Below are positions 12,071 to 61,918 of a stretch of DNA of 64,000 nt, in pieces (the first letter of the stretch is position 1; every line of letters begins with the position of its first letter). Source of the DNA: Botryllus schlosseri (taxonomy: Eukaryota); the NCBI GenBank assembly GCA_051294905.1, contig CM119378.1, positions 10,230,001 through 10,294,000 of the forward strand. The letters run 5' to 3'. Under the pieces are notes generated by a model, which was not told where the DNA came from, did not search any database, and saw only the letters and a program-made list of their open reading frames with translations. The translations under genes were made by a program, and so were the position numbers.

Positions 12071-13183
12071 TATCGTGCCCGGCTTATACTTAAAGGTAGG
12101 GCCACGGCTAACTCTCGTATTTCAAGTGTATGTAAATTTGTATGTGTGTTTGAGATTTATGGACTGTGTGTTGTCAATAATGATCCGGCCCTGAGTAAAA
12201 GTAAAATTGTTAGTTTTAACATTTGAGTCCCAAACTAAACCTATTGGTGTTAGTCGCAACCGTGCTCGTCACTAACATATATATACACTTGCAGGGTACT
12301 GAAGCGCTAAAAAACGTCAGCCTATACAGCCAAATTGTAAATTTAAGTATATAAAATACACTTGAGGTAATCTATTCAGGTATTCCATGCAGCTGTATCA
12401 ACTAATTTAGTACTATCCCGACATACATACTTGCAGAATACTTTGCCAACGAGAAGTACGGTCCCCAAAATACAAGATTTTACTTTCCCTGGTCATTTCG
12501 ACCTAATTCACAGGTTTCCTCAATAGGATTTGAGTATGGCTGCTGCTCTAATGGATGGCTAAGGCCTGCTGAAAGGGTGGAGTACAATCAAATTTTCATG
12601 AAAATTCGGCGTTGCGTAATTGGACAACGAGATCGCTAGCTCACGTAGGATTGTTGACAATGTTGGCCTTCCGCCTACAACGCTCTAGTTTAGCCCAGTC
12701 TAGCTGGATCGCGTATCTTAGGTTCTAGCAGAACTCTACACATGTGTTCTGACTGCTGAGAGTAGATATATGTGTAAGTTAACCTACACCAACCGCGATA
12801 ACTGAACGATTTAAAATTACCAACGTTTACGGGGATTGCAAGTTTATTCTATTATTGGAATTTTTTAAATGTTTTCATATGGATAAGATGGTGTTTCCCC
12901 ATGCCCCCGTACGACCCCGGTCGTGCCGGGCGCGACCTATATCTATCATCGTTGTTACCATACTTGTTAATTCCTAAGAGTTATCGCTGGCTGGGTGCGG
13001 TCATTTTGAAGTATGAGTTTCTTGCAGACAAAATTTACCTGACCCCACATTGAGTGTCGTTGTGATTCAAATCGAACCCTTTGTAATACGAGTCTCAAAG
13101 AAGCCATAAGAGATGATGTTCATTATTTAATTAATGTACAACATTGTTTACTCGGTTGTTCAGATCTAAGATTTAAATATAGG

Positions 13184-16100
13184 ATGCCAAATTTCCTATG
13201 GGCATTGCTGCTGTGCTGTGTTGGTGTGATAAATCATGCGTATGCATCGGAACTACTCCCTTTGTCAGCTGTAAATTCGGAGCCAGTGGTGGAATTTAAT
13301 CACTCAGGATGGAATCGAGTTAGTGAGTTTGTAGGTATTAAACGAGTGCCGTTAAGTCAGATTTTCCCAAAAATTGGAATTGACTGGTCACGCGCAAATG
13401 GACGTTATCCCGTGTATGCTAATACAATAGAATTTGGTGCCGTAAAGGCCCCCTCACAAAGGTTGTTCAGAATCCTGTCTCCAAGAGCCGGCAAATATTG
13501 GCGATCTCCAAAACAATTTGAGAGGGAATGCTTATGTGTCCGAAATAATTCAAAAATATTACCAGAATTGACGCCCGGAAGCATAAAACAGAACATAACA
13601 TACCGACGTGGTACTGGTGTTGATCTAATACATGTCTGGCGATGGGTGATAGGCGAAGATGAACTCCCTATATCATTTACTACCCTACGAATACTGACGG
13701 TCTATAAGGCGTTGGTCATCCACTTTCTAAGCCAATACCTAGAGGTGAATGCCTACTGCTCAAGGCCCAGTCCAACGGGAGGAAACTCACGTTGGAAGAT
13801 TAGGGAAAACGGGTTCACTTATTGTGATAATAGGGGCAGACGAACCCGTAGAATTATTTGTACGCGTTGTAGAATCACTGGTAGTCGGGGAATTGCAAAT
13901 CTAGCTCACAGGAACTTTGTCGTTCATGAAAAAAGTAGGCAACAAACCACTCTAAGAATCCTATGGCCCGACGATATTCCTATGCCTACTCTGAATAAAC
14001 ACATAGTATGGCTACAGACGAGAGGGGTGAATTACAGGGTCGGCTCGCCGATACTGGAAAACCTGAACTTGAGAGTTTATAGATCATTTCCGGCGTTGGG
14101 AAAAAATAGCCCCTTTTGTCTGAGGAAACTTCAAAAACCGGAATGCGAATCTCCTGTTGGCAGTTTTGATACCGCGCTTGCGTTTGACTCGGTCTCTTAC
14201 GATGTGGCGGGAAATCAGCCCATATACCCAAATTTTAATGAAGCCATAATTCATCCGCTAAGAGCTGATATCCGAGTTTCATGCTCACGACCTCGGCCAG
14301 ACAGATATTTTATGATATGGTCACCGTTCAAGGATCAAATAAGCAAATCACTGCATGGACTAAGCCATGTTTTGCAAGTAACTGCCTCAAGGTATCTCGC
14401 TGAGGCCAAACTGCTACTCAGACAGATGGCAGCTCCCATGAAAATTTTAAGAAATGAACTATTACGATTACAGGACAAATATGCAACTACCAATGAAGTA
14501 AATAGGTTTCAGAACAGTGTCAATCAAACTCGACATAGGATAGGACGAAATCTTAACCGACAAGTGTTGGATTTACTGATGAGTGCGACAGCCGCAAATC
14601 TATTATTGAATGCCAAAATGGCAAACCTTACGCGTTTTGACCCCAATACAGTTTACAAAGCAGTAATTTGTCGAGGGGCCCTAATTTATTCAGTTTACGG
14701 GTATCGTAAAAATGAGAGCAATCCCCATACCTCTAGTCCACAGACAACAGATCTGGTGACCGAAATTGTCACTCACAGCCCAGCAAATACCCCTATAATC
14801 GCTACCAGATCTACAAAAATGCATGTAGAGACTTACGATGAAGCCCAGTCTACCTACGAACCTACCCTCATTGCCTCTAAAATCTCTCAGTCTCACAGTA
14901 ATGGTAATATCGCAACGACAAAGGTGACTCCGGATGGGGGCCAAATTCAGAAAAGTACCACCCGTACATCCGAGATGTCCACAATTACTAGTGGATATAA
15001 GCCCTACTCTCCTGCTATCCAGCATGAACTGATCATCTCTGACTCAAGAGCCGCGAAATATATTACTAATAGTGCTAGCGAAACACCCGATAATATTCAG
15101 TGGCTCGACTATGTAAGAAATGACACCGCCCGTGCTATAGTTACGTCTGAAAAACCCACAACTATTAATGCGAGCATGTCTAAATCTGGTTCCGTTACGC
15201 GCAGAAACGTTGGTAGAAGTAGCATAGCGTATACTCGCACAAAAAATGCGTCTGGTATTGATATCGGCTTGACTTCAAATACAAGTGAAACAGTATCATC
15301 GGTTGTGACCGACCCTACTTCTGGATTCCCGTCTTTATCAAAAACTGTTATGGACAAGACGGCTGCTGACCCTTTGACTTGGCCCACGAATACCTTTTCA
15401 CCCACGGAAATGGTGAAACTAGGTAGTCTGTCAACTCGGCACTCCGGAACAAAACCCATGACCAATATTAGGAATATACTTAATCCATAAACCACACCTA
15501 GCATTCGAACTTCTAAAGTAGACTCTACAGTCGCAACCATAAGATCTGAAAACTCCGCAGGGGAAATCCAATCGATGGTAACACCCCCTGGACGGGCAGC
15601 TGTTACTAATTCGAATAATAATACGCTGGCCACCTCAATAAGCACAAGTGTGGAAGACACTACATCGTACTTTCCAAATGAAAATAGTGACAGTGGACAT
15701 ATAGTGCAAGTAAATATATCCGCAAGAACCTTAAGTAACAACACGTTTGAGCAGGTACAGAACTTGATGCAGAAACTCTACCGAACAACTACAGCGGCGA
15801 TGTTATTATCAAGCAAATTACACTCGAACGCGTCCCCGCGAGAATCAGCTACTAGTACCCAGCCTAAATCGGCAAATAACATCACCAGCGAATCATTTGG
15901 GTATGAGACAACCGACCCTTTGGAAAAGCTGAATAGCCGAAATTTACGAACGGAGGCCGCAGGTAAGACTTTGAATATTTACAAAATACGCAACAATACC
16001 CCACCAGCATGGGTTAACAAAGTGCCTTCCGGTCTATTAAATAGGAAACAAACGAAAGATGATGAAATTATTATGCCCAGGTCAACTACAATGTCAGTGT

Positions 16101-16939
16101 CGGATATAAAGAGTAACGATTATGGTACGACCCTCGCTGAGCAAACAACTACTCCCGATTCGGTAGCTACACCTGATAACAGAGATACCTCAACAATTCT
16201 AAACCCACGGTCGCCTCTAATAGAGTCTTTAGCTTATTTCAGCCGTGACCAAAATACTACAACGGTTTCAAAATATTTACCTCTCGGCGCAAGCACCCAG
16301 TGGAACGAGGTGACTCATACGCAGGTTGGAATCACCTCTGAAGTGAATTTGTCAGGTTATTCGAGGCTACATAAAATTGAGATTCCGAAGGTTTCGCGTT
16401 TGGTAGTTAGTTCCCACGAAAAATCCCCCATATTGAGTAGTTCACCTGCCGTCCATACGACATTGCGTGATAATGCCTCGAATCTGGACCCGAGCACAAA
16501 CCTTGTTCGACCAGCTAATTCAGAAAGAACAACGATTCCTGTCGCCCTTAACAACATCACTATTACGTACGAACCCACAATAATACCTTTGGATATCATA
16601 TCTGACAAAGTTATAAATTCAAATAAAACGTTACCGCGCGAGAGTGAAATGGATAATCCTGCTAACAATAGTACGTTATATTTGATCAGGCTACGTGAAC
16701 TATATCGAATCGAAAGTGGATATGTATTAGGGACGGAATTCCGTGTTGAAAATTTGAAAAATGTAAACTTAAAACGACATTTCTATAAAATTATTGTGTC
16801 CATAGCAATAATTTTTGCCATAGCTATGGCTTTATTAACCTACCGCCTATATAAATATCGGGTTTCGGCCAACTACCTAAAAGGAGTTATTAGACGGAAC
16901 AACGCGGAAAATTGGTTGGAGGCAATAGAACACCACTAG
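13184..16939 (+). CDS. env1 paralogue with a mucin-like stalk (env2), interrupted by one in-frame TAA at 15488-15490
   Basis: ORFs 13184-15490 and 15575-16939 share a frame and the 28 codons between them are open. Matches to env1 include FERECLC/FENTCTC, WRWVI/WRWKI and CESPVGS/CKDPVGS. Long S/T-rich region, then TM IIVSIAIIFAIAMALLTY. Confidence 0.75.
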
Positions 16940-22900: not shown

Positions 22901-25013
22901 AGAGCCACCTACTAATTTGGCTAAGCACAAGAGTTGTCATGACTCAAGATCTATTGTCGCACAAAGATGGTGATAATTTTTGAAACCGATGTGATTCCCT
23001 ATTATTAGAAATACCCGCCAGCTTGTAACACTATTATGGTGTTCCCTCACTTTAGGGATCCTATACAAAAACACCCCATAATACTAAGTACACCCCGTAG
23101 CCAGGGTGAACAATAAACCTATATGTTGGTATATGCCTTACTTTTCGTGTTTAAATTCTGTTAATGATCCCTATTTGTAGCAACGCGATATGGCGTTAGA
23201 TACCGGAAACAACGCCGAGCTACCCTGAATAAATGTTTGAATTTATGTGACACTTCCTCTATTTGAGACGAAACATTTTCTGTCAGCGCCCGAATGAATT
23301 AACCTTTCATATCTATAAATGTGATTTAAGGCGCACATGTGATATTATTGATTGGCTAATAATGAGTTATGTACTACTCTAATTGTTTGCAGTTGGTATC
23401 GAGCATTTTGTCATCATAATACTTGTAGTGACCAGCCTATGTTTAGTCCGACTGCACACTAACCTATTTGTTCGTAGAGATGCTATTTTTACTGGATTGA
23501 GTGTAATCATAATGCCCTTTATTACCCCCACTCCCAAAGTGAGGCAGCGCACTTTGATTAACAGACGCTGTGCCTCGTCGCCATTTGAAAAATAAATTAT
23601 TTTGTTTGAGGAAAAACCATGCTCATATTCTCTACTGCCACGACACTAGGGAATAGCATGGCTTCATGGCATCCTCCGCTAATTAAAAGAAGGGGAGGGG
23701 TAACTTCGTTGTACATATTTTGTGGTATCCGTCAGAGAATGAAAATGATATAAGAAAAATGAATAAAAAAAAAATAAATTTTTCTATCATGTATTTTAAT
23801 TGAAAAAAATAATGCTTGTTTTGAGTGCAAACCTGAAGCTAGCTAACCCTAAAAATAACTACTTGTATATTATTAATCGAGAGTTATAATGCATATACCC
23901 TTAGTACTGCAAATGTACTACTTAATGCATAGCAATGGTGTAATATATGTACTGTACACGGAATGCTTGGAATTCGCTTGTTTTGTGATATATCAGTGTA
24001 CTAACAAAAATGAAATAATGATGATATGAGTCAAATATGTAGTTATGTATATATTAATTAAATCGACACGGTCTCTTTAGGATTCCGATAAGGTCCTCCC
24101 CCCCTAAAAGCTAAGAAAATAACACCATAATGTCTAGGTTATGAAGAAGGCTATAGTAACTGAAACGATTAGGGGTGATCTATGAATCACCTAGCTACCC
24201 ATATGAAGCTGCTAATACGGAAAAAGCCGTTGCGAAAGCGACAGATATGTAACCACCCTATCTTGTTTGTGTTAAATATTATAATTATAAATCTGTAACC
24301 TTACGCATAGAGACAATTCGATGAAAGTAATGTTGAATAATACTTGGTGAAGAATAATATCACAAGTAGTGCGCCATATTTGGCACGATAACTGTGTTCA
24401 TTGAGCTAAGACGGTGACATTCTTGGCACTGGAGTCGAATCTATATGCGTAATTACAGAGTATTGGGCTATATCCTCCCGCCCCTATATAAGAGTGGATG
24501 GACCCCGAAATCGAAAATCAAATATAAAAGTATATAAGTATTATGCCTAGCAGGGAATAGCTTGCCCTGGTCATAATTTAAAAAAATAATCTTAAATACC
24601 ATCAAAATTTAATGATTGGAAAAGAGTGGGCAGTTTCGGATGGTTGATTGGAATGAGCTCGCCATAACTTTGGTATATTTGCTTGACTGGATAATTTCAT
24701 TTGCGTCTTTATGTAGTGCGGCGCAGCCATTCCATCACCAGTACGGAACTGAAACGTATGTTTTGCGATACAAATGTGTCGAGTATAGAGTGATGCTTAT
24801 ATGGAATAGTCGTATGCATGCCAGTTTTACGATCATGCTGCCATTAAATGGGGCCACCATTTTTCGTGCATGCGAACTTTTGCAGTAAGTGTTGCCGTTA
24901 TTTTATATTAGTGTATGCATTTTATATCTATGTGTCATGTGGTGCCCACACGAATTGTATAGCAGCTGCTGTGAACAATTGTTACCCATGTAGGCAGCAT
25001 GGATGCCAAATTC

Positions 25014-25960: not shown

Positions 25961-25975
25961 TGGAGGTCCCAACCG
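25961..25975 (+). promoter_or_regulatory. Primer-binding site, tRNA-Gln-like
   Basis: TGGAGGTCCCA(A)CCG compared with the complement of the tRNA-Gln(UUG) 3' end, TGGAGGTCCCACCG. Confidence 0.65.
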
Positions 25976-26207: not shown

Positions 26208-26216
26208 GGAGGCGAG

Positions 26217-29200
26217 ATGAAGAAATTCTTCCGAAAGAAAAAATCGCCGGAGGCGGTTGCTGAGCTTGAGCAGGGTATACAACTGTTCAAAGCTACGCAA
26301 AGGCGTCACGAAAACGTAAGAGACCAGGAGAAAAGACTAACTCAAAGCGTCGCTGAACAGACGAAGCTCCTGCAGGACGTCAAAGCAGTTTTGCCAGTAG
26401 CGGTAAAAGAATTGGACAAAGCCAAAAAAGAGGTTACACAGGCCCAAGCAGATTTGAAAGCAGTCAGCGATGCCACAGCTAAAGTTAGTGGTAAAGTGTC
26501 CACTGATGTACTGAATCAAGTCTTGAAGGCCGAGTTTGAGTTGGGGAGAGAACACACTAGAGCAGTCGGGGATAAGCCCCCCCGACCATCTCCCGCTCTC
26601 GCAATATTACCTGCCACGCTACCACCGTCATACGATCAACAATCTGGACGAGGCACCGATAGGGCGACGCTCCGACCTAAACTCCAGGTTACCAAAGGCC
26701 TAGATTGTCATACAGTAACGGCAGTCTATCCCACTCTACCCGGATCAAAATCTGGAGATATGGTACGTAAGACGGCCCGAATATCATCGGCTCGTCGCAC
26801 CGGAACATCACAACAGGCCGGTCCTGCACTTCGACTGACTACGACGCCCGGCCAGAGACTGTCGGACGCAATGGAACAGATGCGATCGAGGTCCCTGGAC
26901 AGGTGTGAGCGAGACAATATGCCCGCTCCTGCTCCTAAAAATGGCCCTGGATCAGACGCCGAAGTGCGATTTGATGACGATTACCTACCCAGATACACCG
27001 AACCGTCAAGGTTTTTGCAGGCGGGGGTAGCCAGGAATGGCCGGGACAATGTACGACTGACTTTCGACGCGCTAGGAAAGCGTCGGGCGCGTAGTGAACC
27101 TGATGAGACAAGGCATGTGGTTTTCGAAGAAGCTGGCCGGGTCTCCCAAGGAGGAGAGCCAAAATGTGAGGGCCCCTCTCCAAATGACTTGCCACGACAG
27201 CATGAACGCCGACCAGATGAGCTGTTTGACGCGCTTAGGGGTCCAGGTTATTTTGATGAAGATTATGCGCCTTCTCAATTCACAACAGGACCACCTAGAT
27301 TTCAATCTACCCCTGATGACATTGATGGGAGCCCCAATCGCCCACAACGACAATTCGGCGGCCCGTATGAGGAGCTTGTTGGCAACCAAGCTCATGCACA
27401 TACAGTACATGTTGCCGAAAGACCTGCCAGACTTCAGACTGAGAAAGAAATGATGCAGCTCATGATGGACCCTGATGACATGCCGCTCGTCAAATGGATG
27501 GCGAATACAATGGAGCGCATTGAGCATGGGGAGGGTGATACTAACGAGGATATCATATTGTCAAATGCGATGCAGAAAAAGCTGAAACAAGCTGGACGCC
27601 AAAAACAAGCCAGGCAATTGGGAAATTTCTTCAATACCAATTCTGGTAAACCCAGCTGGGAGTCTGTCATGCGATCTCTATCATTGTCCAACCCACAAGG
27701 ATTGGCGAACAATGAGAAAATCATAAATGAGTTTCGAAATAACTACTCCTGGGACGACGAACCACTACCACTGCTCAACAGCACGCTAAAGCAGCTTGAA
27801 ATTAATATGGGTGATTGTATCACGAAAAGTCCGGATGGACTGCGCCTCTTCAGACACTTACGACGTCAACTCCCTCAGGCCCTTAGGATCTTAATCCGTG
27901 GGTATGAATATGGCTCTTGGAGAAATGTGGCTGAGGAATTGCAGATGTTCTGGAACACGGAATTTTTGGATGATCAAGAAGAGGGAAGATTCCCCCAGAA
28001 AGACAAACATAACAATAAGCGAAAAAATACTGATGCTATATCACCCCTACCACCAGTGCATATCTATAATGTGCAACCGGCGGGGCAGATAATGCCGAGT
28101 TATCCTACTCGACCAGTGCAAGCTGGTGCTGCGCCTACCATGATAAGTTCAGCCCCACCGCCCCCTCCACCACCCATGCCTGCCGGCAGGCCTCCCCAAT
28201 CTGCGCAAGCAACTGGACGTCAGCAATACTCGGCACAAAATCGTAATCCGCTGCCGCGACGAAATCCGGGTCGTACAGCCAAAACAAACCGTTTTCCTAA
28301 TGCCGTGATGGCTGGTGGAAACCCCTATCGAAGGAGTGCTGCACCCGGGAGGCAGACGGGATCGAGGGTCCTAGGAAGGTCGGGAAGACAGCCCGACGCG
28401 AGCAGAAACAACGGCCAGCGTCCACGAAACTCTCAAAACGTACGAACGACTCCGGGAATGCCAGCATCAGACCAGAGGGGACGCGGCCTACCGCAGACTC
28501 AAGATTCGGGCGTCGGGGTGGACCATTCGCAGCTAACGCCGTCCAACAGTCAAGAGGCGAGCCAGATTTCGAACACCCAAGGTGAGAGGTATAATTTCCT
28601 TGGCAACCCTAATATATTTGCGCCATTAGGGTTGTATTTACATCCCTCGCAGGGACAGGCCTTGTCGGTCTGTTATTATTGTAAATCGCCGGGGCATCAA
28701 TCTCGCAATTGCGTGGTAAAATTCATATTGTGGCTGAATGATCAGGTACTGACTAAAGATGATGTATTGGGCTGGATTATAAGAAAACGTGTTCGACCGG
28801 TGCCCGCCCATGTCAAAGAAACAACTGAACAAAATTGGCTTCCCTTTTTGGAGTCTAACCAACTACTGACAATACCCGATTTGGACCGGTATTTTGCGTC
28901 TCAGGGCTCTCCCTCGTTCATTGAGAGAACCACCCTATGTGAGGCTTATTATGACGATAGACCCAAAAATCGTGACAAGACTCATTGGCATAATAGAGAG
29001 CAATGGGGGCCACAAGGACCACCAAATATGGGGGGTCAGCCTGCTAATAATGCTAATACTGTCGCATGGACCCAACCTCAATATACCCCACCCCAATATC
29101 ACGAACCCCATTATCACCAACAATTCCAACCCAGTAATAACCCATACTGGACTGATGAGGAATTGCACCAGGGCTTGGTGCTGGCAAAAAACGCGGCGCT

Positions 29201-29243
29201 TCTTCGATATACGCCCCAGATCGAAACAGTGCTTCACATGTAA
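26217..29243 (+). CDS. gag: Gag polyprotein; the last ~16 codons are contributed by the inserted MITE
   Basis: Polybasic N-terminus, coiled coil, PPSY and YPTL motifs, capsid-like core conserved with copy 2, and CCHC knuckle CYYCKSPGHQSRNC (28671-28712). Confidence 0.85.
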   Translation: MKKFFRKKKSPEAVAELEQGIQLFKATQRRHENVRDQEKRLTQSVAEQTKLLQDVKAVLPVAVKELDKAKKEVTQAQADLKAVSDATAKVSGKVSTDVLNQVLKAEFELGREHTRAVGDKPPRPSPALAILPATLPPSYDQQSGRGTDRATLRPKLQVTKGLDCHTVTAVYPTLPGSKSGDMVRKTARISSARRTGTSQQAGPALRLTTTPGQRLSDAMEQMRSRSLDRCERDNMPAPAPKNGPGSDAEVRFDDDYLPRYTEPSRFLQAGVARNGRDNVRLTFDALGKRRARSEPDETRHVVFEEAGRVSQGGEPKCEGPSPNDLPRQHERRPDELFDALRGPGYFDEDYAPSQFTTGPPRFQSTPDDIDGSPNRPQRQFGGPYEELVGNQAHAHTVHVAERPARLQTEKEMMQLMMDPDDMPLVKWMANTMERIEHGEGDTNEDIILSNAMQKKLKQAGRQKQARQLGNFFNTNSGKPSWESVMRSLSLSNPQGLANNEKIINEFRNNYSWDDEPLPLLNSTLKQLEINMGDCITKSPDGLRLFRHLRRQLPQALRILIRGYEYGSWRNVAEELQMFWNTEFLDDQEEGRFPQKDKHNNKRKNTDAISPLPPVHIYNVQPAGQIMPSYPTRPVQAGAAPTMISSAPPPPPPPMPAGRPPQSAQATGRQQYSAQNRNPLPRRNPGRTAKTNRFPNAVMAGGNPYRRSAAPGRQTGSRVLGRSGRQPDASRNNGQRPRNSQNVRTTPGMPASDQRGRGLPQTQDSGVGVDHSQLTPSNSQEASQISNTQGERYNFLGNPNIFAPLGLYLHPSQGQALSVCYYCKSPGHQSRNCVVKFILWLNDQVLTKDDVLGWIIRKRVRPVPAHVKETTEQNWLPFLESNQLLTIPDLDRYFASQGSPSFIERTTLCEAYYDDRPKNRDKTHWHNREQWGPQGPPNMGGQPANNANTVAWTQPQYTPPQYHEPHYHQQFQPSNNPYWTDEELHQGLVLAKNAALLRYTPQIETVLHM
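29186..29192 (+). promoter_or_regulatory. -1 ribosomal frameshift slippery site A AAA AAC
   Basis: After removing the MITE, gag reads LAKNAWGR* and pol continues in the -1 frame as KKRLGALMDPVNQ. Confidence 0.75.
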
Positions 29244-30075
29244 CCAGCAAGTGTTTCCCATGAACACGATCAAATTTTATAAACGTCAAAATAAATTGTT
29301 TTTTGCCTGTGGAGAGACGGATATTAGGGTTGGATGTGGGTTAGGCATATCAGGGTTGGGGGTAGGTGGATATTAGGGTTGTGTTAGGGTATTCCGGGGG
29401 AAGGGGGTTATTAGGGTTGGAGGTGGGTTAGGGTCAAAGTTGGTGTTAGGGTATCCCAAGATTAGGGTTGGGGATATTATGGTCGGGAGAGTGTGGAATA
29501 TCGTGTCCTGCACTCCAAACCTATTCTTGGGTTACCCTTACCCTAACACAGCTCTAGCCCCAACCCAGCTCTAACCATAACTCTAAACCCATCCCCTAAC
29601 CCTAATATCCCCCCTCCCCAACCCTAATATCCCTATTTCCTAACCCTAACACAGCTCTAACCCTAACTCTAAACCCATCCCTTAAACCTAATATCCCCCC
29701 TCCCCAACCCTAATATCCCCCTCTCCTCCAACCCTAATATCCCCATTTCCTAACCCTAACACAGCTCTAACCCTAACCCTAATTACCCCCTCTCCTCCAA
29801 CCCTAATATCCCCCTTTCCCAACCCTAATATCCATCATTCCTCGAACCCTAATATCCCCCCTCTCCAACTCTAATATCCCCCTCTACTCAACCCTAAAAT
29901 CCACCCTCCCCAGTCCTAATATCCCCCTCTCCTCCAACCATAATACCCCCCTTCCACAACAAAGACAAAAAACAATTTATTTTGACGTTTATAAATTTTA
30001 TTGTGTTCATGTGAAACATTTGTTGGTGTCATGGGGAGCACTGTTTCGATCTGGGGCGTATATCGAAGAAGCGCC
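29195..30075. mobile_element. Merlin-type MITE filled with telomere-like repeats
   Basis: Perfect 39-bp TIR GGCGCTTCTTCGATATACGCCCCAGATCGAAACAGTGCT, imperfect to ~125 bp. 8-bp TSD AAAAACGC (29187-29194, 30076-30083). Degenerate TTAGGG array in the left arm and CCCTAA array in the right arm. Confidence 0.85.
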
Positions 30076-30083
30076 AAAAACGC

Positions 30084-33000
30084 TTGGGGGCGCTGATGGA
30101 TCCGGTAAATCAGTTGCCCGATTTAGTGTTACCCCATTATACGAAAACTATACATAACTCTGAATTACCCATATTTACCTTTTTTGATTTGCCGGACAAA
30201 ATGCCGCAACCCGATTTTAGGGACTTATTTGGCGGACAATTATTGTATTTTACAGACACAAAAACAGGTACACAATTTCTTGCGGATACAGGAAGTGTTC
30301 CTAACCTGATAACCCAAGATGCCGTTAAAGCTACCTACCCAGAAAGCTGGACTGAAAGACAACCACTCGATATGAAATTACGCGGCATAGGAGGATCATC
30401 CAGTGTCGACTTTGTCGTCATCATCAAGCTGGACAACCTACCGGTTCCGTTTGCAACTGGTGAAGGAGTCCCGTTAAACATTATCGGACTGAAATGGATT
30501 GAGCAAGTTCAACGGCTACCCTCAGTAGCGACAGAATTGAAGGATCCCACTACAGTGAATTATGAACTATCATTGTCCGTGTATTCGGACACGGCAAAAA
30601 CCATAGCTGGGAGCAGTACTTGCAACGCTGCTACTGGTGATGGGTCGGTGGAAGCTGCAACGTTACATAGCGTCGAGACTGGAAGCCCAGCTGGCGCCCC
30701 TCGGGACCATAGATGTCCCTGTCTCTCGGAAGGATTTTGCGCCAAGTGTGGAGAAACCACGGATACAAAATTAAGTCGGGTGAGCGCTGTGACCCCGAAA
30801 TCCTTACGTGCTGAGCGCGGAAGCCCCACTAGCACCTCTCAGGAACGACATGTTCAAGAGATTCCTGAAAACTACGGCCACTGCATTCGCCACGATAGAA
30901 GAGTGGGAATCGTTCACGACGGCTCCATGGCCGCAGCAGTTGTGCCGCAAACCGAGAAGATAGCATTGAAAGCAGCTGTCGACATCCACACTACAAATTT
31001 TGTGGATGGAGAAGAGTCTGGAGGCCATATGCACGCCTCTCCAGAAAAAGGGCCCCCGGTGGGCGTTGAAACCGCCGGCGTGAAGTTGGATGCGGGCACG
31101 CAGCCCCTTCAGAGGCAGAAAAAATCGAGTGTGGAAGCCCCACTGATTACTGATACCCTCGCTCTCTCTCCACCGGCATCAAAACCGCGCCACGGCCTCT
31201 ATAGACATGGTCGTGGCCCGATAAAAACGTATGAACTGTATGATGGAACTGATAAGAAAGTGAAGACAGAGTTGGAACGGCTATGCAGCCAAGCGGTTGA
31301 ACTTGCCAAATCTGCATATAAACCTCCAGACCTCACATGTCCGGATAATACAATTATACCGGACCAGGTTTGGAGAGAGATTTACGAGCCGTACGCGAAC
31401 GAACTTGAAGACCTGCGAGGTCATCTCAAAGCTCCACAAGTTATGGATTATAAATGTGACATTGAACTTAAGGACCCCTCTACCAAACCATTTGTGTCAG
31501 GTCCGTATAACCTGAAGGGGAAGGACCAGGCTAAGGCATTGCAAGAAGCCGTAGAAAACTTCCTGGATTTGGGAGTCATTGAACAGGGGTTTGCCCAATG
31601 GAAACTGGCCATTTTCGTGGTACCCCAGAAAATGAATGAACGGCAAAAACAAGAGGACGGATGGAAACAAGCGTGGAGAGTTGTACAAAATCTTCAACCA
31701 TTGAACGCTGCCATCAAGTCTATAGAAGTTCCCCCTCCCCTTGTACCTGACGTAAAGCAGCACGCGCAAGGGCGAGAGGTACTTTCCCTGCTGGACTTGA
31801 AGAAGGCCTATTTCCACATGGATATGACGGAAAGGTCTAAGCAGTATGTAGGCATTGCTGTGAAGGGAATGCATATACGATGGCGCAAGATGCCGATGGG
31901 GCTCCGCATTTCGCTGGCGTTTTGGATGTCCAATATGCAGAAATGCGTGGTCACGCCTATCACAGAGAGTTACCGGAAGTGCATGAAAGAACATGGTCGT
32001 ATGGACGAAGCTACAGCGACGCCCATCGAGGCCTACATCGATGATATATTTCTAAGTACGAAGACAGTCGACGATCACCTGGTGCTATTACGACTGGTGT
32101 TTGAACAACTGGCTAACATGAAACTGACTGTAAGCATCAATAAGTGTTTCTTTGGTAAACGGCGGGTAAACCTGCTGGGTGCAACCGTAACGGGTAAGGA
32201 AATCGAAGTTCAGCCCGAACGAGTGCGAGCACTCAAAGAACTTGCGCCACCCCACAATATTTACGAACTCCGGGGGTGGATTGGTGCACTTCGATATATC
32301 TCAGAACATATACCGGAGTTGAGCCTAAAACTGGCTAAATTTGACGCTCTCACTGGAAAAGTTCCAGCGACTCAGGGCAGAATAACACCGTTACTATGGA
32401 CTAAAGAATTGCTACATGATTTCAAGACAGCGCAAGCCTTGCTAAACGATACAAGGGTGCTGTATCATCTCAACCCAGATCTTCCCTTGTATGTCGAAAC
32501 AGATGCATCTGATGTGGGTTTTGGCTCGGTGATATTTCAAACAGAAGTGGGATGTACCCCACCATTCGACAAGGTGTACACTATCGCTTTTTACAGCCAA
32601 AAATGGACTACACCCACGGCGAAAGTGTACGACCCCTGTACAAAAGAACTAAAGGCTCTGAAGGATTCTGTGGAAAAATGGCAATCGATGTTACGCGCAC
32701 TACCGTTCACGATCATCACAGACAACATGGGCGTGTTTGGGCTGTTGAAAAGAATGACAGACAATGCCAAGAACCCAAGCCCTAAACCACTGATTCAACG
32801 GTGGCTCAATCAGTTATCGGGTTTTCAAATCGAAAAGGTGATACACTTGAGTACCTCACAAGTGTTTACCTCCGACGGCCTTTCCCGCTCTTACTGGATG
32901 GAGATGGCTGCGGGAGAAGATGACCCCGGAGTATGGACGGCTCGTCCTTCAAGCGAAAACACCGAGGGACACACCATCAACAGCACACGAGATCGCGAAA

Positions 33001-33530
33001 GTGTGCAAAGATTTTTGATACGTCACTGTAGACACGAAGTATGTGATAACAGTGAAAACGGTATTCATCCCTGGGAAAACGTACAACAACTCCTGAAAGA
33101 GAAGCTGGGAAGGGATCTCCCGATGGCCACGCTAAAACGGATCATGCGGGACAGCACCAGAGCGGTAGTCTCGGATAAAGGGTTGGCGGCCGCACAGGGA
33201 CATACCGTGGGAGAACCCCCTCATTATGAACAATATTTAAATAATGACAAATTGTATCATATGACTACACGTACCAGAGCCATACAAATCATGAATAGCG
33301 AACTCAGACGTATGGGTAGGAGGTATGTACACCTCAGCATACAGGAGCCAAGCTATAAATATATTCGGGGAGCAGCTTTAGAAATGGACTCATGCGATCT
33401 CCGAAAACTGGGATTAACTCTATTGCAATCACCCAATTCGGACGTGGTTTTGTGTGAAGGCCCTATCCCAAATGCACATATACGTCTCGCGCACGAAATC
33501 GTGAGTCGAACACGGTCAAACAGCGCATAA
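30084..33530 (+). CDS. pol: Pol: aspartic protease, reverse transcriptase, Ty3/Gypsy-type RNase H and an unknown C-terminal domain; no integrase
   Basis: Protease FLADTGS and IIGLKWI. RT LLDLKKAYFHM, MPMGL, AYIDDIFL, KCFFG. RNase H TDASDVG, KELKAL, ITDN, SDGLSR. No HHCC or DDE motif downstream. Confidence 0.92.
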   Translation: MGALMDPVNQLPDLVLPHYTKTIHNSELPIFTFFDLPDKMPQPDFRDLFGGQLLYFTDTKTGTQFLADTGSVPNLITQDAVKATYPESWTERQPLDMKLRGIGGSSSVDFVVIIKLDNLPVPFATGEGVPLNIIGLKWIEQVQRLPSVATELKDPTTVNYELSLSVYSDTAKTIAGSSTCNAATGDGSVEAATLHSVETGSPAGAPRDHRCPCLSEGFCAKCGETTDTKLSRVSAVTPKSLRAERGSPTSTSQERHVQEIPENYGHCIRHDRRVGIVHDGSMAAAVVPQTEKIALKAAVDIHTTNFVDGEESGGHMHASPEKGPPVGVETAGVKLDAGTQPLQRQKKSSVEAPLITDTLALSPPASKPRHGLYRHGRGPIKTYELYDGTDKKVKTELERLCSQAVELAKSAYKPPDLTCPDNTIIPDQVWREIYEPYANELEDLRGHLKAPQVMDYKCDIELKDPSTKPFVSGPYNLKGKDQAKALQEAVENFLDLGVIEQGFAQWKLAIFVVPQKMNERQKQEDGWKQAWRVVQNLQPLNAAIKSIEVPPPLVPDVKQHAQGREVLSLLDLKKAYFHMDMTERSKQYVGIAVKGMHIRWRKMPMGLRISLAFWMSNMQKCVVTPITESYRKCMKEHGRMDEATATPIEAYIDDIFLSTKTVDDHLVLLRLVFEQLANMKLTVSINKCFFGKRRVNLLGATVTGKEIEVQPERVRALKELAPPHNIYELRGWIGALRYISEHIPELSLKLAKFDALTGKVPATQGRITPLLWTKELLHDFKTAQALLNDTRVLYHLNPDLPLYVETDASDVGFGSVIFQTEVGCTPPFDKVYTIAFYSQKWTTPTAKVYDPCTKELKALKDSVEKWQSMLRALPFTIITDNMGVFGLLKRMTDNAKNPSPKPLIQRWLNQLSGFQIEKVIHLSTSQVFTSDGLSRSYWMEMAAGEDDPGVWTARPSSENTEGHTINSTRDRESVQRFLIRHCRHEVCDNSENGIHPWENVQQLLKEKLGRDLPMATLKRIMRDSTRAVVSDKGLAAAQGHTVGEPPHYEQYLNNDKLYHMTTRTRAIQIMNSELRRMGRRYVHLSIQEPSYKYIRGAALEMDSCDLRKLGLTLLQSPNSDVVLCEGPIPNAHIRLAHEIVSRTRSNSA

Positions 33531-33995
33531 AGTCATGTACAGAAAGACACGTAAAAAATAAAATAAAAAAAAATAAAAAAAAAAAATATTTTTTTTTTGT
33601 TTAAACCTGCGTTAAATGGTTACTAATAGTACCGTGAAAAGTGGTTGTTTGTTGCATTTGATTCTATATGGAATTCATGTATTATAAGCCCTAATATGTA
33701 TACGTAATTTCGATGTTCATGGGGAAACATTTAAGATTAGATAAAAGATACATGTGAAACACTAAATAGATAGTGAATCACATGTACGAGTAAAGGACGG
33801 CGTCTGGTACAGGAGTTCCAACATTTTGATGTTAGCATTTATTACTACAACGCATACTTCAGCAATGAGCTTCGGTGACCCCACCTTACATTCTACAACG
33901 GGGAGTCACAACATGATGCAGCAATCCTGCATTTACACAGCGTATTAATGCACAAGGCACAATTTTCCATCACGCGTATCTATATTCTACGCGAT

Positions 33996-43869: not shown

Positions 43870-44190
43870 TGCGTAAAATTACCATTTTCACTTGGAGGTC
43901 CGCCGTTACCCGAGTAACAATAGATTTTCCTTTTGAGATCTGTCGTTTACCCAGAGTAACAATACATTTTCACTTGAAGGTCTATCGTTTCACAGAGTAA
44001 CAAAACCATTTTCGTTTGTAAATATATTTTTCCCTGAGTATCAAAACCGTTTTCGTTTCGAAATATATTTTTCCTAGAGTAACAATACCATTTTCGTTTG
44101 AAAAACTATCATTTACCTGAGTAACAATACCATTTCGCTTGGAATACTACCATTTACCTGAGCAACAATACATTTTCACTCGGAGTTCCT
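43870..44190. repeat. Degenerate ~41-bp tandem repeat
   Basis: About eight units built on GAGTAACAATACCATTTTC. Confidence 0.8.
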
Positions 44191-45790
44191 TAGATCTGCT
44201 GCCTTCATGCCAACTACCGTATTTCGTTTACTGCTTTTCTTCGTTATCGTTTTGCTCCAATGAAGGACATTATCTGCCGTGCATTGTTTTTAATCGTCAT
44301 GTGGTACAATATCTCGTTGCCTTTATATTTACAGTGCGGAGGGGGCAACCCTTTTGTATGTCCATGGGCAGCCGCCAAACCATAGTTCTAGACTATTACT
44401 CTATCGCACCTTTTCATGACGTTCTTGATTTCTTCAATTCTTATTTGCACCCCCATTTTCTTTTTTATGACGATGCAAATTCCTTCCCAGGGATGGTATC
44501 CATCTACTGAGTCATTACAAAGATCATGGCGACAATGAGACTCTTGAGTTCCGTCTTAACGCTTGGACTGGTCCCTTGTTGTGGTAACTTGGCCAACCAT
44601 TGGCCAATGTGAATCTCGTGATGAACGGGGTTTTGTTGTTGGTGGAGAGAGGGCGAGGTTCTTCGTTGTCAGCGGGGATTCCCTACCTATTCAATCTAAC
44701 CTCTGATCTCGGCGTGTGCCCACGCCTACCGTCACGCCAACGGACTCAATCGCCGTCGGGGGCCCTGTTTCTGGGGAGACATGCATCATAAAATCCCCAG
44801 ACTCCTAGTCGGTCATATCCGGATATATGTACGGTTGACCGGCAACAGCTGCTCTCCAGTTACCTTTTGGGAAAGTAGGTAAGACAGTGGCTGTCGTAAT
44901 GCTACTATGGGCCGAACAGTTACAATCGTTCGGACAAGTGCATCTACGAGATCTGTCAGGACCAATTTTCTCGTGTTGGTCCTCATTTGCGCCAGCGGGG
45001 ATTCCACACTCGACGTCTTCAAGAATAGTGCCAGCAGGGATTACTGACTCGACACTTGGAGTTTCCCATAGGTTTTGTGTGACATTAGTTGCGCTTTTCT
45101 ACTCGTCGTTCGCACCAGTGGTGATTACCATCTCGGTACTTGCGCCAGCGGCAACGGCCAGCGGCGACGGCCAGCGTCAGCGTGCCGGCTCGACGCTTAT
45201 TTGATTTGCAGCTTCCATCAACCCCATCATCGGTTACAGTGTCGCGAGGACTGCTTCCGACTTTGGTTCCGTCCCGTTGATCTCATGAGATCACATCATG
45301 TAGAGTTACTAAAGACAACTCTTCAATTGCATTAGACGGTGTTTTCAGCCCAATTACTATGCTTGGTAGTTGCTGTACTTGTTCAATCCATTTCAACCCT
45401 ATGATATTAAGTGGAACTCCTAATCCGGTCACAAATGGAACGGACAGACCATCAAAATTAATCTCTACCAAGGAATCAACTTGGGACAAGCCACCTATTC
45501 CTGCGTCAATTCCATGTCTGTTGGTTGACGTTCCTCTCAGCTTTGTGGGTATTTAGAAATAACGACCTTTTTCATTATCAAATTGGGGATGCTTCCCGTG
45601 TCAGCTACGAATTTCGAACCCGTTGTTGTATCTATCAAACACAACAATTGGCCTCCGAACAATTCCGTAAATCGGGCTGTAAAGGGTCATCCGGCGTATC
45701 AAGAAATGTAAATAAGGGTAAAGAAGAGTTATGTACAGTTTTTGTGTGTTGGGGTAATAAATTATCTGGGAGCTGATTTACCGGATCAAT
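44190..45790 (-). pseudogene. pol: pol of copy 2: protease, linker and C-terminal domain; RT and RNase H deleted
   Basis: DPVNQLPD, ADTGSIPNL and VPLNIIGLKWIEQVQ match copy 1. VKTELKSL is joined almost directly to DGYHPWE...GLAAAHGHT...LYHMT. Confidence 0.8.
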
Positions 45791-47537
45791 CAGCTCCCGC
45801 AAGCGATTTTCGAGAGTCGAATACCTTGATTCAGTTCATCATCCGTCCAATATGAAGCATCATATCGACGTGGATGATCAGGGTATTGAGGTTCCGCCCA
45901 AGCCACTTGGCTATTACCTCGGGATGAGTGTGCAGGCGGTAAAGATGGCTTTGTGTCACGCGTTTCCTTTGTTTCCTGGTTCATAGGGCGCGTCTCTTGT
46001 TCATCCAGAAACTCGGAGTTCCAAACAAGTTGTAGCTCCTCCGCAACGTCCCGCCACCTTTTTTCATCTTCCCAGCCTCGTAACATAAGTCTTAGCGCTT
46101 CGGGTAGTCGTTGTCGCAGATTTCGAAATAGACGCAATCCATCAGGATTCTTTTTAATTTTACTGTCCATGTTTATTTCCAGTTGCTTCAAGGCGCTATT
46201 GAGTAATGGTAGCGGCTCATCCTCCCAGCGATAATTTCTGCGTAAATCCCCAATGATTTTTTCATCATTCACCAAACCCTGGGGGTTTGATAAGGAAAGA
46301 GATCGCATAACCGATTCCCATTCTGCTTCCCCTGAATCGGTATTAAAAAAAATTCCCAATTGGGTAGCCTGCTCGTGTCGGCCAGCAGCCCTCAATTTTT
46401 TTTTTTTGCATAGCATTAGCCAAAATTACATCAGCATCCGTATCCCCAACACCGTGGCGTATTCGTCGCATTGAATTTTCCATCCACTTCAGAAGCGGCA
46501 TGTCCCCAGGGTCCATCATAAGCTGTAGCATCTCTTTTTCCGATTGGGGTTTATCTGTCAACCAATGCCTTGTTGTTACGGCAACTGGGTGTTGTCGGGG
46601 TTGTTGTCGCCTAGTCCTCCCCCCATGCTCTTTTGGAGTGGAGGTAGCGCGAGGTGTATCAGGAGAGCGAGGGATGTCGGAAAGTTCCTCCTCGAGAGAT
46701 TCTTCCGCGGAATCCTGATAATATGCACCGCCCCGTAGGGACTTTATATTGTCTCTTATTTCTTGGGAAATCTGTTTCAGTCTAGCATGGAAATCGATTT
46801 CAGAATTTTCTGCATCAGATTGTTCCTCGCCTGGACTATGAAAGGTCACCCGTCGGGAGGCGCCATCCTCTTCTGTCCTTGTTCCCATTGGTGTTTTAAG
46901 TAAGTTTTCATTTTTTTTGTTTGGCGCGTGCACCACCCCCCACAAGGAAACAAGACGTTGATCCTTTATAAGAGTCAGACAATGTGGTGGGCTCAGAACT
47001 CGGTAACGTGGGGTAGACGGCCGTTACAGTGTGACAATCCAAACCCTTGCGAACCGTCATCGTTGGCCCCTGTTTAATATCCCCGCTTGACTGTTCAGTG
47101 GAAGGCACGTACGCCGGAGGATCATATTCTGGTGCATCTGGAAGTACTGTTAAAGCGTGAGGTTGGGTTCGTTCCCTCGTGACCTGCGCATGCGACTTTC
47201 CTAGCTCAAACTCTAACGAGAGAATGTCGTTCAGCACATCGGTGGAGACCTTCCCGCTAACCTTTGTTGTGGCATCACAAACAGCTTTGAGGTCCGCTTG
47301 AGCTTTTCGAACCTCTTTCTTTGCCTTTTCTAAACCTTTCATGGTTTCTGGTAGAGAAGTCTTTACTTCTTTTAGTAGCTCTGTTTGTTCAGCCACATCT
47401 TTAGCAAGTTGTCTTTCTTGTCGCCGTAGATCTTCATGGCGTTTTTGTGTCGCCTTGAGCAAGGTAATGCCCTGTTTAAGTTCATTTGTCGCTTCTGACG
47501 ACTTTTTCCTTTTAAATGCTTTCAACATTCTTCGCAT
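45790..47537 (-). pseudogene. gag: gag of copy 2, with two frameshifts in T runs and the nucleocapsid region missing
   Basis: ORFs 46908-47537, 46343-46945 and 45790-46416 align to copy-1 Gag (KVSGKVSTDVLN, GLDCHTVTAVYPTLP, WESVMRSLSLSNPQGL, YWTDDEL). Confidence 0.85.
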
Positions 47538-47550
47538 AGTAGCCTACTCT

Positions 47551-47820
47551 CTATTGACTGGAGGAAGTACTGTTGACAGAAGGTAGTGGATCAGGTGAAA
47601 ATACGTTGAAATAGAATGTAGATCCTTGTGGCGTATTCGTGGGTTGAACGTAATCAGTGGATTCGCTGCTGTTAGATCCCAAAAGTACGTTCAACAGATT
47701 AGAAAACGCTCCAGGCGATACGTGCAGATAGATTGCCGCCAATGTAATCAGAAGAGATACAGACGATGATAGCAAGGCTACGACAAGTACAAGTTTTACG
47801 ATGGTCGTCTTAGAAAGCAT
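47551..47820 (-). CDS. Small hydrophobic ORF upstream of gag, copy 2 (89 aa)
   Basis: MLSKTTIVKLVLVVALLSSSVSLLITLAAIYL..., located between the PBS and gag. Confidence 0.6.
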   Translation of the reverse strand: MLSKTTIVKLVLVVALLSSSVSLLITLAAIYLHVSPGAFSNLLNVLLGSNSSESTDYVQPTNTPQGSTFYFNVFSPDPLPSVNSTSSSQ

Positions 47821-47849
47821 CGATTAGTCAACGTCTTAACACCGGAAGT

Positions 47850-47867
47850 TCCCCGTACTGGCCACCA
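47850..47867 (-). promoter_or_regulatory. Primer-binding site, tRNA-Ile
   Basis: Minus strand TGGTGGCCAGTACGGGGA, an 18-nt complement of a tRNA-Ile(AAU) 3' end. Confidence 0.85.
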
Positions 47868-47871
47868 ATTT

Positions 47872-48760
47872 TGTTTTTAGAGTGCAGCTCCGATAACGAT
47901 TGTTATGCGAGTAGTCCACACTTGTTCGGGTTACTTCCTAGTAAGGCGTTGCCTTTCGTTTGCTTTAGTATCCTGACGACGTTTGTAAATGGTGATTGGA
48001 GCAACAACAGTTGTAGGATTGTTTCTTCTCAAGTTGACAATGACTCTAGGGTCCAGAATTTTAATCTACTTTTATCTACTGATAATCTAGGATCTTAATA
48101 CAACCAAATACTCTAATCAGTTATTCGCGCAGACGGAAATGAGGTAACTCTATGCAAAGCTTGGTTAAATTGGCATACAAATCATTCATCAATTATAACA
48201 CAAGGCATGGTTTAACCTATACATCATCATACACGATTAATAAACATTTTCAATACTCCAAGGTTTATTTACGCATATAATTCATGCGACGGCCTTTCCT
48301 GCCGAAAAGCAGCTCCAAGGTTGGTTTACACATATAATTCATGTGACGGCCTTTCATGCCGAAAAGTTTATACATGACATGTCGTTTCACAATACTCAAC
48401 TACAATTGTCATGCAAAAACTAATGTCTTGAATTCAATCTGTTGTTTCACCGGGTTCTTTTAGTATTGGTGTTCTTAAGCTTTTTATTCATTCGTATGTT
48501 GACTAGCAATCGTCAAAGTCAAACACCTTGTTTTCGATGCCAAATATTTACATAACTCGAGTGGTTACGAGGGTCTTGATAATAAGTTTATCAATTATAA
48601 CTTCCTATGTACGTGCTCATTAAATGCAACACGTAATGTTGTGTTATTTTATGTCCTATTGAATAACAGTCCGCACAGGCAACCCGTCCTGATTTTGGCG
48701 TTATTTTGTCCTATTAAATAACAGTCCGCACAGGCAACCCGTCCTGATTTTGTGATCATG
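47872..48760 (-). repeat. LTR-like segment of copy 2 with two tandem duplications of ~55-58 bp
   Basis: Ends ...AAAAACA before the PBS and is homologous to 25561-25960. Duplications at ~48256-48366 and ~48639-48752. Far boundary uncertain. Confidence 0.6.
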
Positions 48761-58000: not shown

Positions 58001-58033
58001 ATGTGTATTTTTGCAGAATATACTTAAAAATAT

Positions 58034-61915: not shown

Positions 61916-61918
61916 TAA

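What the first reader, a model, noticed from the sequence alone, without database searches (positions are those of the whole stretch)
32890..33530. Unknown ~210-aa domain occupies the integrase position of Pol
After RNase H the frame continues with HPWE...GLAAAxGHTxGxPPH...LYHMT...AxQIM. This is conserved in copy 2 (~44200-44505) even though that copy lost RT. There is no HHCC or DDE motif. A faint macro-domain-like pattern is only a guess.
Basis: partly seen in the sequence, partly recalled or inferred. Interest (0 to 1): 0.72.

Follow-up and report, generated by a model that had tools for sequence, protein, structure and literature searches.

The report
Tpt1 enzyme in transposase-integrated retroelement
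The mystery tail of this reverse-transcriptase protein is a well-preserved copy of Tpt1, an NAD-using enzyme that acts on phosphate groups of RNA and DNA, and it belongs to a 26-kb retrovirus-like element that has no integrase or long terminal repeats and inserts like a cut-and-paste DNA transposon.

Summary
The stretch is real but not unknown. Window 33009-33494 is a Tpt1/KptA NAD+-dependent RNA 2'-phosphotransferase domain, not a macro domain or linker. The Arg-His-Arg-Arg active site is kept in 23 of 24 intact copies, with dN/dS 0.13-0.21. No integrase follows. The Pol is the last gene of a 25,710-bp element (8110-33819) with GGTAC...GTTCC ends, an 8-bp target duplication, its own Merlin/IS1595 transposase, two envelope-like genes, an internal primer site and gag, but no LTR pair. 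Passage through RNA is supported by primer sites that swap between three host tRNAs and by copies lacking an exact GT-AG intron. Inferred: a circular cDNA is inserted by the transposase, and Tpt1 is an accessory end-processing enzyme, not an integrase substitute; its substrate is unproven. No circle junction appeared in shallow reads. This scan reported the Tpt1 fusion and the Merlin-ended element before, on other DNA of this genome; ten literature searches found neither.

The parts
8102..8109 (.). Left copy of the 8-bp target-site duplication (aacatttt)
8110..8119 (+). Left end of the element, GGTACAAGTG (imperfect short inverted repeat)
8362..9393 (+). Merlin/IS1595-type DDE transposase gene, D-D-E kept
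   Evidence: Pfam PF12762 E 1.4e-10; alignment of 6 element transposases; linkage
9662..12070 (+). Envelope-like gene 1: hydrophobic N-terminus, basic cleavage-like site followed by a hydrophobic segment, late hydrophobic segment; fusion role inferred
   Evidence: alignment of 8 copies; only weak leads to viral fusion proteins; no Pfam match
13043..16939 (+). Envelope-like gene 2, distant paralogue of gene 1; in-frame stop at 15488-15490 in this copy
23685..23700 (+). Candidate polypurine tract 2.3 kb upstream of the primer site (weak: seen at this place only in this subfamily)
25961..25971 (+). Internal primer-binding-site-like sequence, tRNA-Gln-like and imperfect in this copy
26208..29243 (+). 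gag-like gene with CCHC zinc knuckle
28582..30255 (+). Cryptic GT-AG intron, exactly missing from a group of genomic derivative copies
29195..30075 (.). 881-bp inserted miniature element with GG...CC inverted ends and 8-bp duplication, at the gag/pol overlap; absent from the 95%-identical C2 copy
30015..33530 (+). pol frame: protease (DTG), spacer, RT (about 31665-32189), RNase H (about 32397-32900), linker, Tpt1
33009..33494 (+). Tpt1/KptA RNA 2'-phosphotransferase domain; Arg 33030, His 33033, Arg 33159, His-x-Thr 33258-33266, Arg 33318
33810..33819 (+). Right end of the element, ending GTTCC
33820..33827 (.). Right copy of the 8-bp target-site duplication
44128..55124 (-). Copy 2: deleted, non-autonomous relative; left end at 55124, 18-nt tRNA-Ile primer site at 47867-47850, broken gag/protease, no RT-RNase H, broken Tpt1 remnant 44537-44128, right end not found

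Best explanation
SHOWN: the domain is a Tpt1/KptA-family NAD+-dependent phosphotransferase/ADP-ribosyltransferase with a full active site, fused to Pol and under purifying selection. SHOWN: the Pol is the last gene of a 15-52 kb element family with GG...CC ends, 8-bp target duplications and its own Merlin/IS1595 transposase, and with no integrase or LTR pair. SUPPORTED: the DNA copies pass through tRNA-primed reverse transcription. INFERRED (about 0.6): because the primer site lies in the middle of the integrated copy, the copied RNA is permuted relative to it; the element is excised or made as a circle, transcribed across the joined ends, reverse-transcribed in a Gag particle into a nicked circle, and inserted by the transposase at the joined ends. 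INFERRED (about 0.4 among the options): Tpt1 travels with RT and uses NAD+ to cap 5'-phosphate ends left by RNase H and primer removal with ADP-ribose, shielding the unfinished cDNA, which has no bound integrase, until it is closed and inserted. It is an accessory enzyme, not the integrase.
For: Identity; 11 of 11 PDB matches of the family profile are Tpt1, best E 4.6e-14. Active site: R16/H17/R64/R119 (PMC6097658, passages) and His-x-Thr (PMC8464070, passage) map through; kept in 24, 24, 24, 23 and 24 of 24 distinct intact copies and in 7 of 8 outside relatives. dN/dS 0.13-0.21 in 9 of 9 unsaturated pairs; RT 0.02-0.04. Ends: window; 12 of 12 pairs; 13 of 14 pairs. Linkage: 51 of 51 close transposase matches have a same-strand Tpt1 match within 80 kb, 0 of 12 distant Merlins do, background about 3%. 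RNA passage: 18-19-nt perfect matches to host tRNA-Ile(AAT), Thr(AGT) and Thr(CGT) at the same site, differing even between copies 92% identical; exact intron loss in 9 genomic copies, 7 of them checked with both ends and a duplication. Permuted gene order with proper ends in the C1 copy. The region after RNase H also carries dUTPase or an exonuclease III-like domain in relatives. 5'-phosphate capping of DNA and RNA is a documented side activity of some Tpt1 enzymes (PMC6182162, abstract and Discussion).
Against: No enzyme activity was measured, and only a subset of Tpt1 enzymes cap 5' ends (human and Runella do not). The usual Arg-x-x-Gln-Gly-His-Ser and His-Gly-Thr motifs are altered (Ala-Ala-x-Gly-His-Thr, His-Met-Thr). 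A sister lineage does without Tpt1 (L153), so it is not needed for this way of life in general. The intron loss is one ancestral event (acceptor AG only in this subfamily; shared deletion) and could come from cDNA conversion of a resident copy followed by ordinary transposition. Left ends of the other permuted copies were not found. The polypurine tract is not conserved in place. Transposase linkage outside this genome is untested: 0 of 80 metagenome loci hold the transposase, but only one short contig holds Tpt1. The Atlas feature search did not return Tpt1 (scores up to 0.81).
Confidence: 0.62

Rival explanations
1. Same element and same enzyme, but Tpt1 heals RNA: it removes 2'- or 3'-phosphates from the tRNA primer or the genomic RNA (for example after attack by host nucleases), restoring a primer 3'-OH or a readable template.
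For: Internal 2'-phosphate removal is shared by all Tpt1 enzymes tested; the Arg equivalent to R64, needed selectively for the second, phosphate-removing step, is kept in 24 of 24 copies; some Tpt1 enzymes remove terminal 2'/3' phosphates (PMC6573784, abstract); the family depends on host tRNA primers.
Against: No source of 2'-phosphorylated RNA is known for this host from my calls; the host has its own TRPT1-like genes. R64 also binds the phosphate, so keeping it does not separate the two uses.
Confidence: 0.3
2. The element is a giant Merlin DNA transposon that moves by cut-and-paste and carries an enveloped retroelement's genes as cargo (Teratorn-like fusion); reverse transcription copies only the gag-pol part, and intron loss and primer swaps enter by gene conversion.
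For: Ends and duplications are those of Merlin (PMC8101967, passages); a 4.7-kb copy without gag, pol or primer site has proper ends; no junction seen in reads; 25-50 kb is long for reverse transcription (PMC6431247, passages).
Against: RT dN/dS of 0.02-0.04 across subfamilies with no LTR pair for a separate cycle; repeated perfect primer-site swaps; most non-autonomous copies examined keep the primer site; permuted gene order.
Confidence: 0.25
3. The domain has become a non-catalytic nucleic-acid- or NAD-binding module, or acts on metabolites such as NADP(H) to blunt host defence.
For: Altered motifs and long branch away from cellular Tpt1 (19-28% identity); one outside relative lacks the catalytic His (P0007); a paper title lists NADP(H) as a Tpt1 substrate (PMC10622864, search listing only); the elements carry IAP and LRR genes.
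Against: All four catalytic residues are kept across copies as little as 33-40% identical.
Confidence: 0.12
4. One reading: a macro domain, or a linker ahead of an integrase.
For: None found.
Against: Only PF01885 matches; the frame ends about 290 bp before the element's right end; no integrase inside mapped elements.
Confidence: 0.01

Closest known systems
Tpt1/KptA/TRPT1 RNA 2'-phosphotransferases (Pfam PF01885; Runella Tpt1, PDB 7kw8)
   Same: Profile match over both lobes, Arg-His-Arg-Arg tetrad, His-x-Thr motif.
   Different: Fused to the C-terminus of a retroelement Pol; own branch apart from host and prokaryote-like enzymes (FastTree 0.999); extra Cys/His-rich N-lobe motif; altered Gly in His-Gly-Thr.
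Merlin superfamily / IS1595 DNA transposons (PMC8101967, passages)
   Same: DDE_Tnp_IS1595 transposase, GG ends, 8-bp duplications, imperfect inverted repeats.
   Different: 15-52 kb; carries primer site, gag, pol and envelope-like genes, often a second transposase; shows marks of reverse transcription.
Ty3/Gypsy LTR retrotransposons, including envelope-bearing and giant ones (Burro; PMC6431247, passages)
   Same: Gag, protease-RT-RNase H order, tRNA primer site, probable -1 slip site, nearest RT relatives, IAP cargo.
   Different: No integrase, no LTR pair, 8-bp duplications, internal primer site; RT-RNase H forms a separate deep clade (SH-aLRT 99, quick tree).
Teratorn (piggyBac-herpesvirus fusion; PMC6431247, passages)
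   Same: Virus-like gene set inserted by a DNA-transposon transposase with inverted ends.
   Different: Teratorn is a DNA virus; here the partner is a reverse-transcribing element and the transposase is Merlin-type.
Caulimoviruses and DIRS elements (recalled, not read here)
   Same: Reverse transcription without DDE integrase and with a circular DNA stage; DIRS uses a separately encoded recombinase and ends Pol with a modifying-enzyme domain.
   Different: Caulimoviruses encode no insertion enzyme and have no envelope; DIRS uses a tyrosine recombinase and lacks protease. Neither was included in my tree.

Membership tests
Tpt1/KptA (PF01885) | Profile score above the curated cut-off | tested here: met
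   34.5 bits vs 26; family profile vs PDB E 4.6e-14
Tpt1/KptA (PF01885) | Arg-His-Arg-Arg catalytic tetrad | tested here: met
   mapped to Runella R16/H17/R64/R119; 23 of 24 intact copies keep all four
Tpt1/KptA (PF01885) | His-x-Thr NAD-binding motif | tested here: met
   24 of 24; motif defined in PMC8464070 passage
Tpt1/KptA (PF01885) | Two-lobed fold | not tested
Tpt1/KptA (PF01885) | NAD+-dependent 2'-phosphate transfer | not testable with these tools
   needs an assay
Macro domain | Match to macro-domain profiles or structures | tested here: not met
   no such match at E<=0.1 in Pfam or E<=1 in PDB
Merlin/IS1595 transposon | DDE_Tnp_IS1595 transposase with D-D-E | tested here: met
   6 of 6 aligned
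Merlin/IS1595 transposon | 5'-GG ends and 8-9-bp target duplication | tested here: met
Merlin/IS1595 transposon | Terminal inverted repeats | tested here: inconclusive
   only about 10 bp and imperfect; very imperfect repeats occur in Merlin
Merlin/IS1595 transposon | Moves through DNA only | tested here: inconclusive
   primer swaps and intron loss argue against; a short copy without primer site argues that DNA-only moves may also occur
Ty3/Gypsy LTR retrotransposon | Gag and protease-RT-RNase H | tested here: met
Ty3/Gypsy LTR retrotransposon | Integrase after RNase H | tested here: not met
Ty3/Gypsy LTR retrotransposon | Pair of LTRs, 4-6-bp duplication (recalled) | tested here: not met
   no direct repeat over 1.5 kb apart inside the window element; duplications are 8 bp
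Ty3/Gypsy LTR retrotransposon | tRNA primer site next to the 5' end | tested here: not met
   primer site present but 17.9 kb inside the left end
Pararetrovirus-like circular cycle | Circular DNA and terminally redundant RNA | tested here: inconclusive
   no junction among the joints listed; RNA depth 0-4; permuted order in one fully mapped copy

The most novel reading that the evidence does not exclude
A separate order of enveloped reverse-transcribing elements of marine invertebrates: genomes of 15-50 kb are copied from a circular template across the joined transposon ends, as in pararetroviruses, and inserted by a Merlin/IS1595 transposase, with a particle-borne Tpt1 that ADP-ribosylates or heals nucleic-acid ends. 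This would be a fourth way for an RT element to integrate and the first natural role for Tpt1 outside tRNA splicing.
Probability: 0.45. Interest if true: 0.93.

Novelty: categorically new. Interest (0 to 1): 0.8.

Why it matters
Orders of retroelements are told apart by how they integrate (integrase with LTRs, tyrosine recombinase, GIY-YIG or LINE endonucleases; recalled). A Gypsy-like RT engine joined to a Merlin transposase and its ends fits none. Separately, why Tpt1 is kept in organisms without fungal-type tRNA splicing is an open question (PMC6182162, Discussion); a selfish element that keeps the enzyme intact gives a defined place to look for its natural substrate, and the isolated 160-aa domain is easy to assay. 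The class 'categorically new' refers to the element; the domain itself is a new member of a known enzyme family.

Tried and rejected
Macro domain and pre-integrase linker: rejected. The 552-bp direct repeat 4643-5194/35524-36075 as LTRs: rejected, it lies outside the ends defined by the C2 copy and the duplication. Copy 2 as proof of selection: rejected. Splicing as a conserved way to make Pol: rejected, the acceptor AG is present only in the window subfamily. The RT-RNase H deletions of the derivatives are not GT-AG. Word-based protein searches: none with Pol region 1000-1165, none among longer proteins, four stand-alone Tpt1. Viral contigs: nothing. Genome-wide rve search scored only 150 of 1389 candidates, so it was not used as a test. 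Atlas: no Tpt1 cluster returned; envelope hits under 0.9 are leads only. Sequencing runs: no RNA holder listed; three raw RNA runs (3-6% of each read) and one DNA contig set laid on a 4.7-kb copy with both ends gave depth 0-4 inside the element and no right-to-left joint among 15 listed joints, 89 not shown: no verdict; Pol and Tpt1 were not on that stretch. Left ends: 1 of 10 groups resolved (a second match, C12 33 kb, rejected because it is not at the homology end), 3 of 14 scans, 0 of 8. No structure model could be made, so the folds of Tpt1 and envelope proteins are untested. The careful RT tree did not finish; the quick tree is quoted, 2 of 59 rows dropped as too short. Literature searches showed no paper on Tpt1 in a retroelement or on a Merlin-ended retroelement; Repbase and subscription journals are not covered, and no supplements were read.
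Full report
OBSERVATION. Copy 2 matches residues 46-136 of that tail at 44% identity. So the feature is real.

WHAT THE DOMAIN IS. Pfam gives one family for the tail, PF01885 Tpt1/KptA (E 2.8e-8, 34.5 bits, cut-off 26). The best solved-structure match is Runella Tpt1 (7kw8, E 2.3e-4), and a profile of 13 element copies finds 11 PDB sequences, all Tpt1 (best E 4.6e-14). The alignment places the four essential Runella residues R16, H17, R64 and R119 (PMC6097658, passages) on window codons 33030, 33033, 33159 and 33318, and the His-x-Thr motif (PMC8464070, one passage) on 33258-33266. Among 24 distinct stop-free copies taken from my loci, the counts are 24, 24, 24 and 23 of 24 for the tetrad and 24 of 24 for His-x-Thr; seven loci with stops were left out. 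dN/dS is 0.13-0.21 in 9 of 9 unsaturated pairs, which are not independent; RT gives 0.02-0.04 and the protease-RT spacer 0.5-0.95. Departures from cellular enzymes: Gly of His-Gly-Thr is replaced, and the Arg before Gln-Gly-His is lost. The element enzymes form their own branch, 19-22% identical to two host TRPT1-like frames and 24-28% to four stand-alone Tpt1 proteins, so this is not a recent capture of the host gene; the donor is undetermined. No fold could be predicted.

HOW WIDESPREAD. The domain has 138 matches in the window's genome. A search with RT-RNase H-Tpt1 found outside relatives: eight reach into the Tpt1 part and seven keep the tetrad; five of these eight pass Pfam at E<=1e-5, P0005, P0007 and P0112 do not. 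One is annotated as a probable RNA 2'-phosphotransferase of Styela clava (XP_039263204.1); the rest are unnamed. One relative adds an exonuclease III-like domain after Tpt1 (P0153), another has dUTPase between RNase H and the start of Tpt1 (P0016). In a quick tree of 57 RT-RNase H rows the family and these relatives form one clade (SH-aLRT 99) apart from integrase-bearing Gypsy-type proteins. Its deepest member (P0011; locus L153) ends at RNase H, has neither integrase nor Tpt1, and is followed by an envelope-like gene related to gene 1 (E 7e-11). With a midpoint root only, this suggests integrase was lost before Tpt1 was gained.

WHAT THE ELEMENT IS. A 95%-identical copy on C2 shares window 8108-33828. 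At those limits the window reads aacatttt|GGTAC...GTTCC|aacatttt: a 25,710-bp element with an 8-bp duplication. Order: Merlin/IS1595 transposase, two envelope-like genes, 9 kb without long frames, primer site, gag, pol-Tpt1. Twelve of 12 further transposase/Tpt1 pairs have the same ends and 8-bp duplications, 14.7-51.6 kb apart; there are 10 different duplications, and two C7 copies share flanks and count as one insertion. Using 97 of the 138 Tpt1 matches and 101 of the 129 transposase matches (short fragments dropped), 51 of 51 close and 36 of 38 middle-distance transposases have a same-strand Tpt1 within 80 kb, against 0 of 12 distant Merlins and about 3% by chance; 48 of 52 long Pol-Tpt1 frames have a linked transposase. 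D-D-E is kept in 6 of 6 aligned. GG ends and 8-9-bp duplications define Merlin (PMC8101967, passages). Larger copies add a second transposase, an LRR membrane protein and an IAP. No integrase lies inside mapped elements, and the window element has no internal direct repeat over 1.5 kb apart. A second arrangement puts transposase and envelope genes after pol; in the C1 copy it is bounded by proper ends and a duplication 36,200 bp apart, a circular permutation of the gene order. Six of 6 similar copies end in GTTCC but their left ends were not found.

DOES IT GO THROUGH RNA? Three lines say yes. (1) After a shared motif about 250-300 nt upstream of gag, subfamilies carry 18-19-nt perfect complements of different host tRNA 3' ends: Ile(AAT), Thr(AGT) and Thr(CGT), each matched to a tRNA gene of this genome. 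Two copies 92% identical over 7 kb use different ones. Copying of the primer explains this most simply. The window's own site is Gln-like and imperfect. (2) Derivative copies lack exactly window 28582-30255, bounded by AAG|GTGAGA and TTTTACAG|, an in-phase GT-AG intron. The junction occurs 9 times in the genome, control 0; of 14 left/right pairs tested 13 have 8-bp duplications and 7 of these show the junction. It is one ancestral event at a cryptic acceptor, so it shows passage through spliced RNA once. (3) RT is under strong purifying selection although there is no LTR unit for it to serve. Against: a 4.7-kb copy without primer site has proper ends, and reads gave no verdict on a circle junction.

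COPY 2. It is an 11-kb deleted relative with its left end at 55124 and a tRNA-Ile site. It shares its RT-RNase H deletion with at least five other copies. Its Tpt1 remnant has a stop and a frameshift. The window copy is also damaged: an 881-bp insertion sits at the gag/pol overlap and envelope gene 2 has a stop.

HOW IT MOST LIKELY WORKS. Inferred: since the primer site is internal, an RNA that copies the whole element must cross the joined ends, which needs a circular template as in caulimoviruses (recalled). Gag and Gag-Pol (a slip-site-like AAAAAAC lies at the overlap in 7 of 8 copies) package it, RT makes a nicked circle, and the transposase inserts it at the joined ends, giving 8-bp duplications. 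I put this at about 0.6. Tpt1 rides on Pol and so acts in the particle. All tested Tpt1 enzymes remove internal 2'-phosphates; some cap 5'-phosphate DNA or RNA with ADP-ribose (PMC6182162, abstract and Discussion) or remove terminal phosphates (PMC6573784, abstract). I favour capping of unfinished cDNA ends (about 0.4) over healing of primer or template RNA (0.3), because the cDNA ends have no integrase on them and neighbours in this slot are DNA-maintenance enzymes; this step is a reasoned guess.

NOVELTY. The domain is a new member of a known family in a setting for which ten searches found no paper (listings only unless stated). The element fails the LTR/Gypsy test and carries retroviral machinery that Merlin lacks; Teratorn is the nearest analogy (PMC6431247, passages). 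After I had recorded my reading, the scan's notes showed that other agents had reported the Tpt1 fusion and the Merlin-ended element on other pieces of this genome; these are not independent support. The primer swaps, the intron-less copies and the Tpt1-less sister lineage did not appear in the excerpts I saw.

VERDICT. Observation real, label wrong, larger story strong. Interest 0.80.

Noticed in passing
window 55984-63924: Polinton/Maverick-like gene block: split polymerase-like frames 58162-61915, A32-type packaging ATPase 61919-62536, integrase-like piece 63502-63924.
   Followed up: no
window 4643-5194 and 35524-36075: 552-bp direct repeat, 98.9% identical, on either side of the element but outside its ends; origin unexplained.
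   Followed up: partly
window 42383-42804 and 55125-55540: 420-bp inverted repeat, 96% identical; one arm abuts the left end of copy 2 exactly.
   Followed up: partly
window 29195-30075: Miniature element with GG...CC inverted ends, 8-bp duplication and a telomere-like CCCTAA-rich interior; looks like a Merlin-type MITE.
   Followed up: partly
window about 30580-31215 and equivalents: The protease-RT spacer has much lower synonymous divergence than RT in close pairs (pS 0.04-0.26 vs 0.14-0.69) and is kept in most RT-less derivatives: possible RNA signal or exchange between copies.
   Followed up: partly
G000:C3:19.31-19.43 Mb (L091, L093) and C14:5.157 Mb: Cluster of host TRPT1-like frames and fragments, an apparent local expansion.
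   Followed up: partly
L047/L048 (G000:C3:28.67 Mb): Divergent family member with a G-patch in Pol, followed by an unknown frame and an envelope-like frame; no transposase match within 80 kb.
   Followed up: partly
L056, L057, L067, L045: Accessory genes in large copies: LRR membrane protein, IAP with three BIR and RING, several PWP3A-C-terminal-like frames, further unknown frames.
   Followed up: partly
L153 (13.9 kb metagenome contig): Enveloped gag-pol-env element whose Pol ends at RNase H, with no integrase, Tpt1 or transposase on the contig.
   Followed up: partly
window 32889-32945: Linker motif W-M-E-M-A-x-x-x-D-D-P-G-V-W is conserved in outside relatives, and two database proteins start at its Met; possible cleavage site or internal start that frees Tpt1.
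   Followed up: no
window 1429-1661, 6677-7585, 43824-44177: Two further inverted repeats and a 41-bp tandem array that interrupts the end of copy 2.
   Followed up: no
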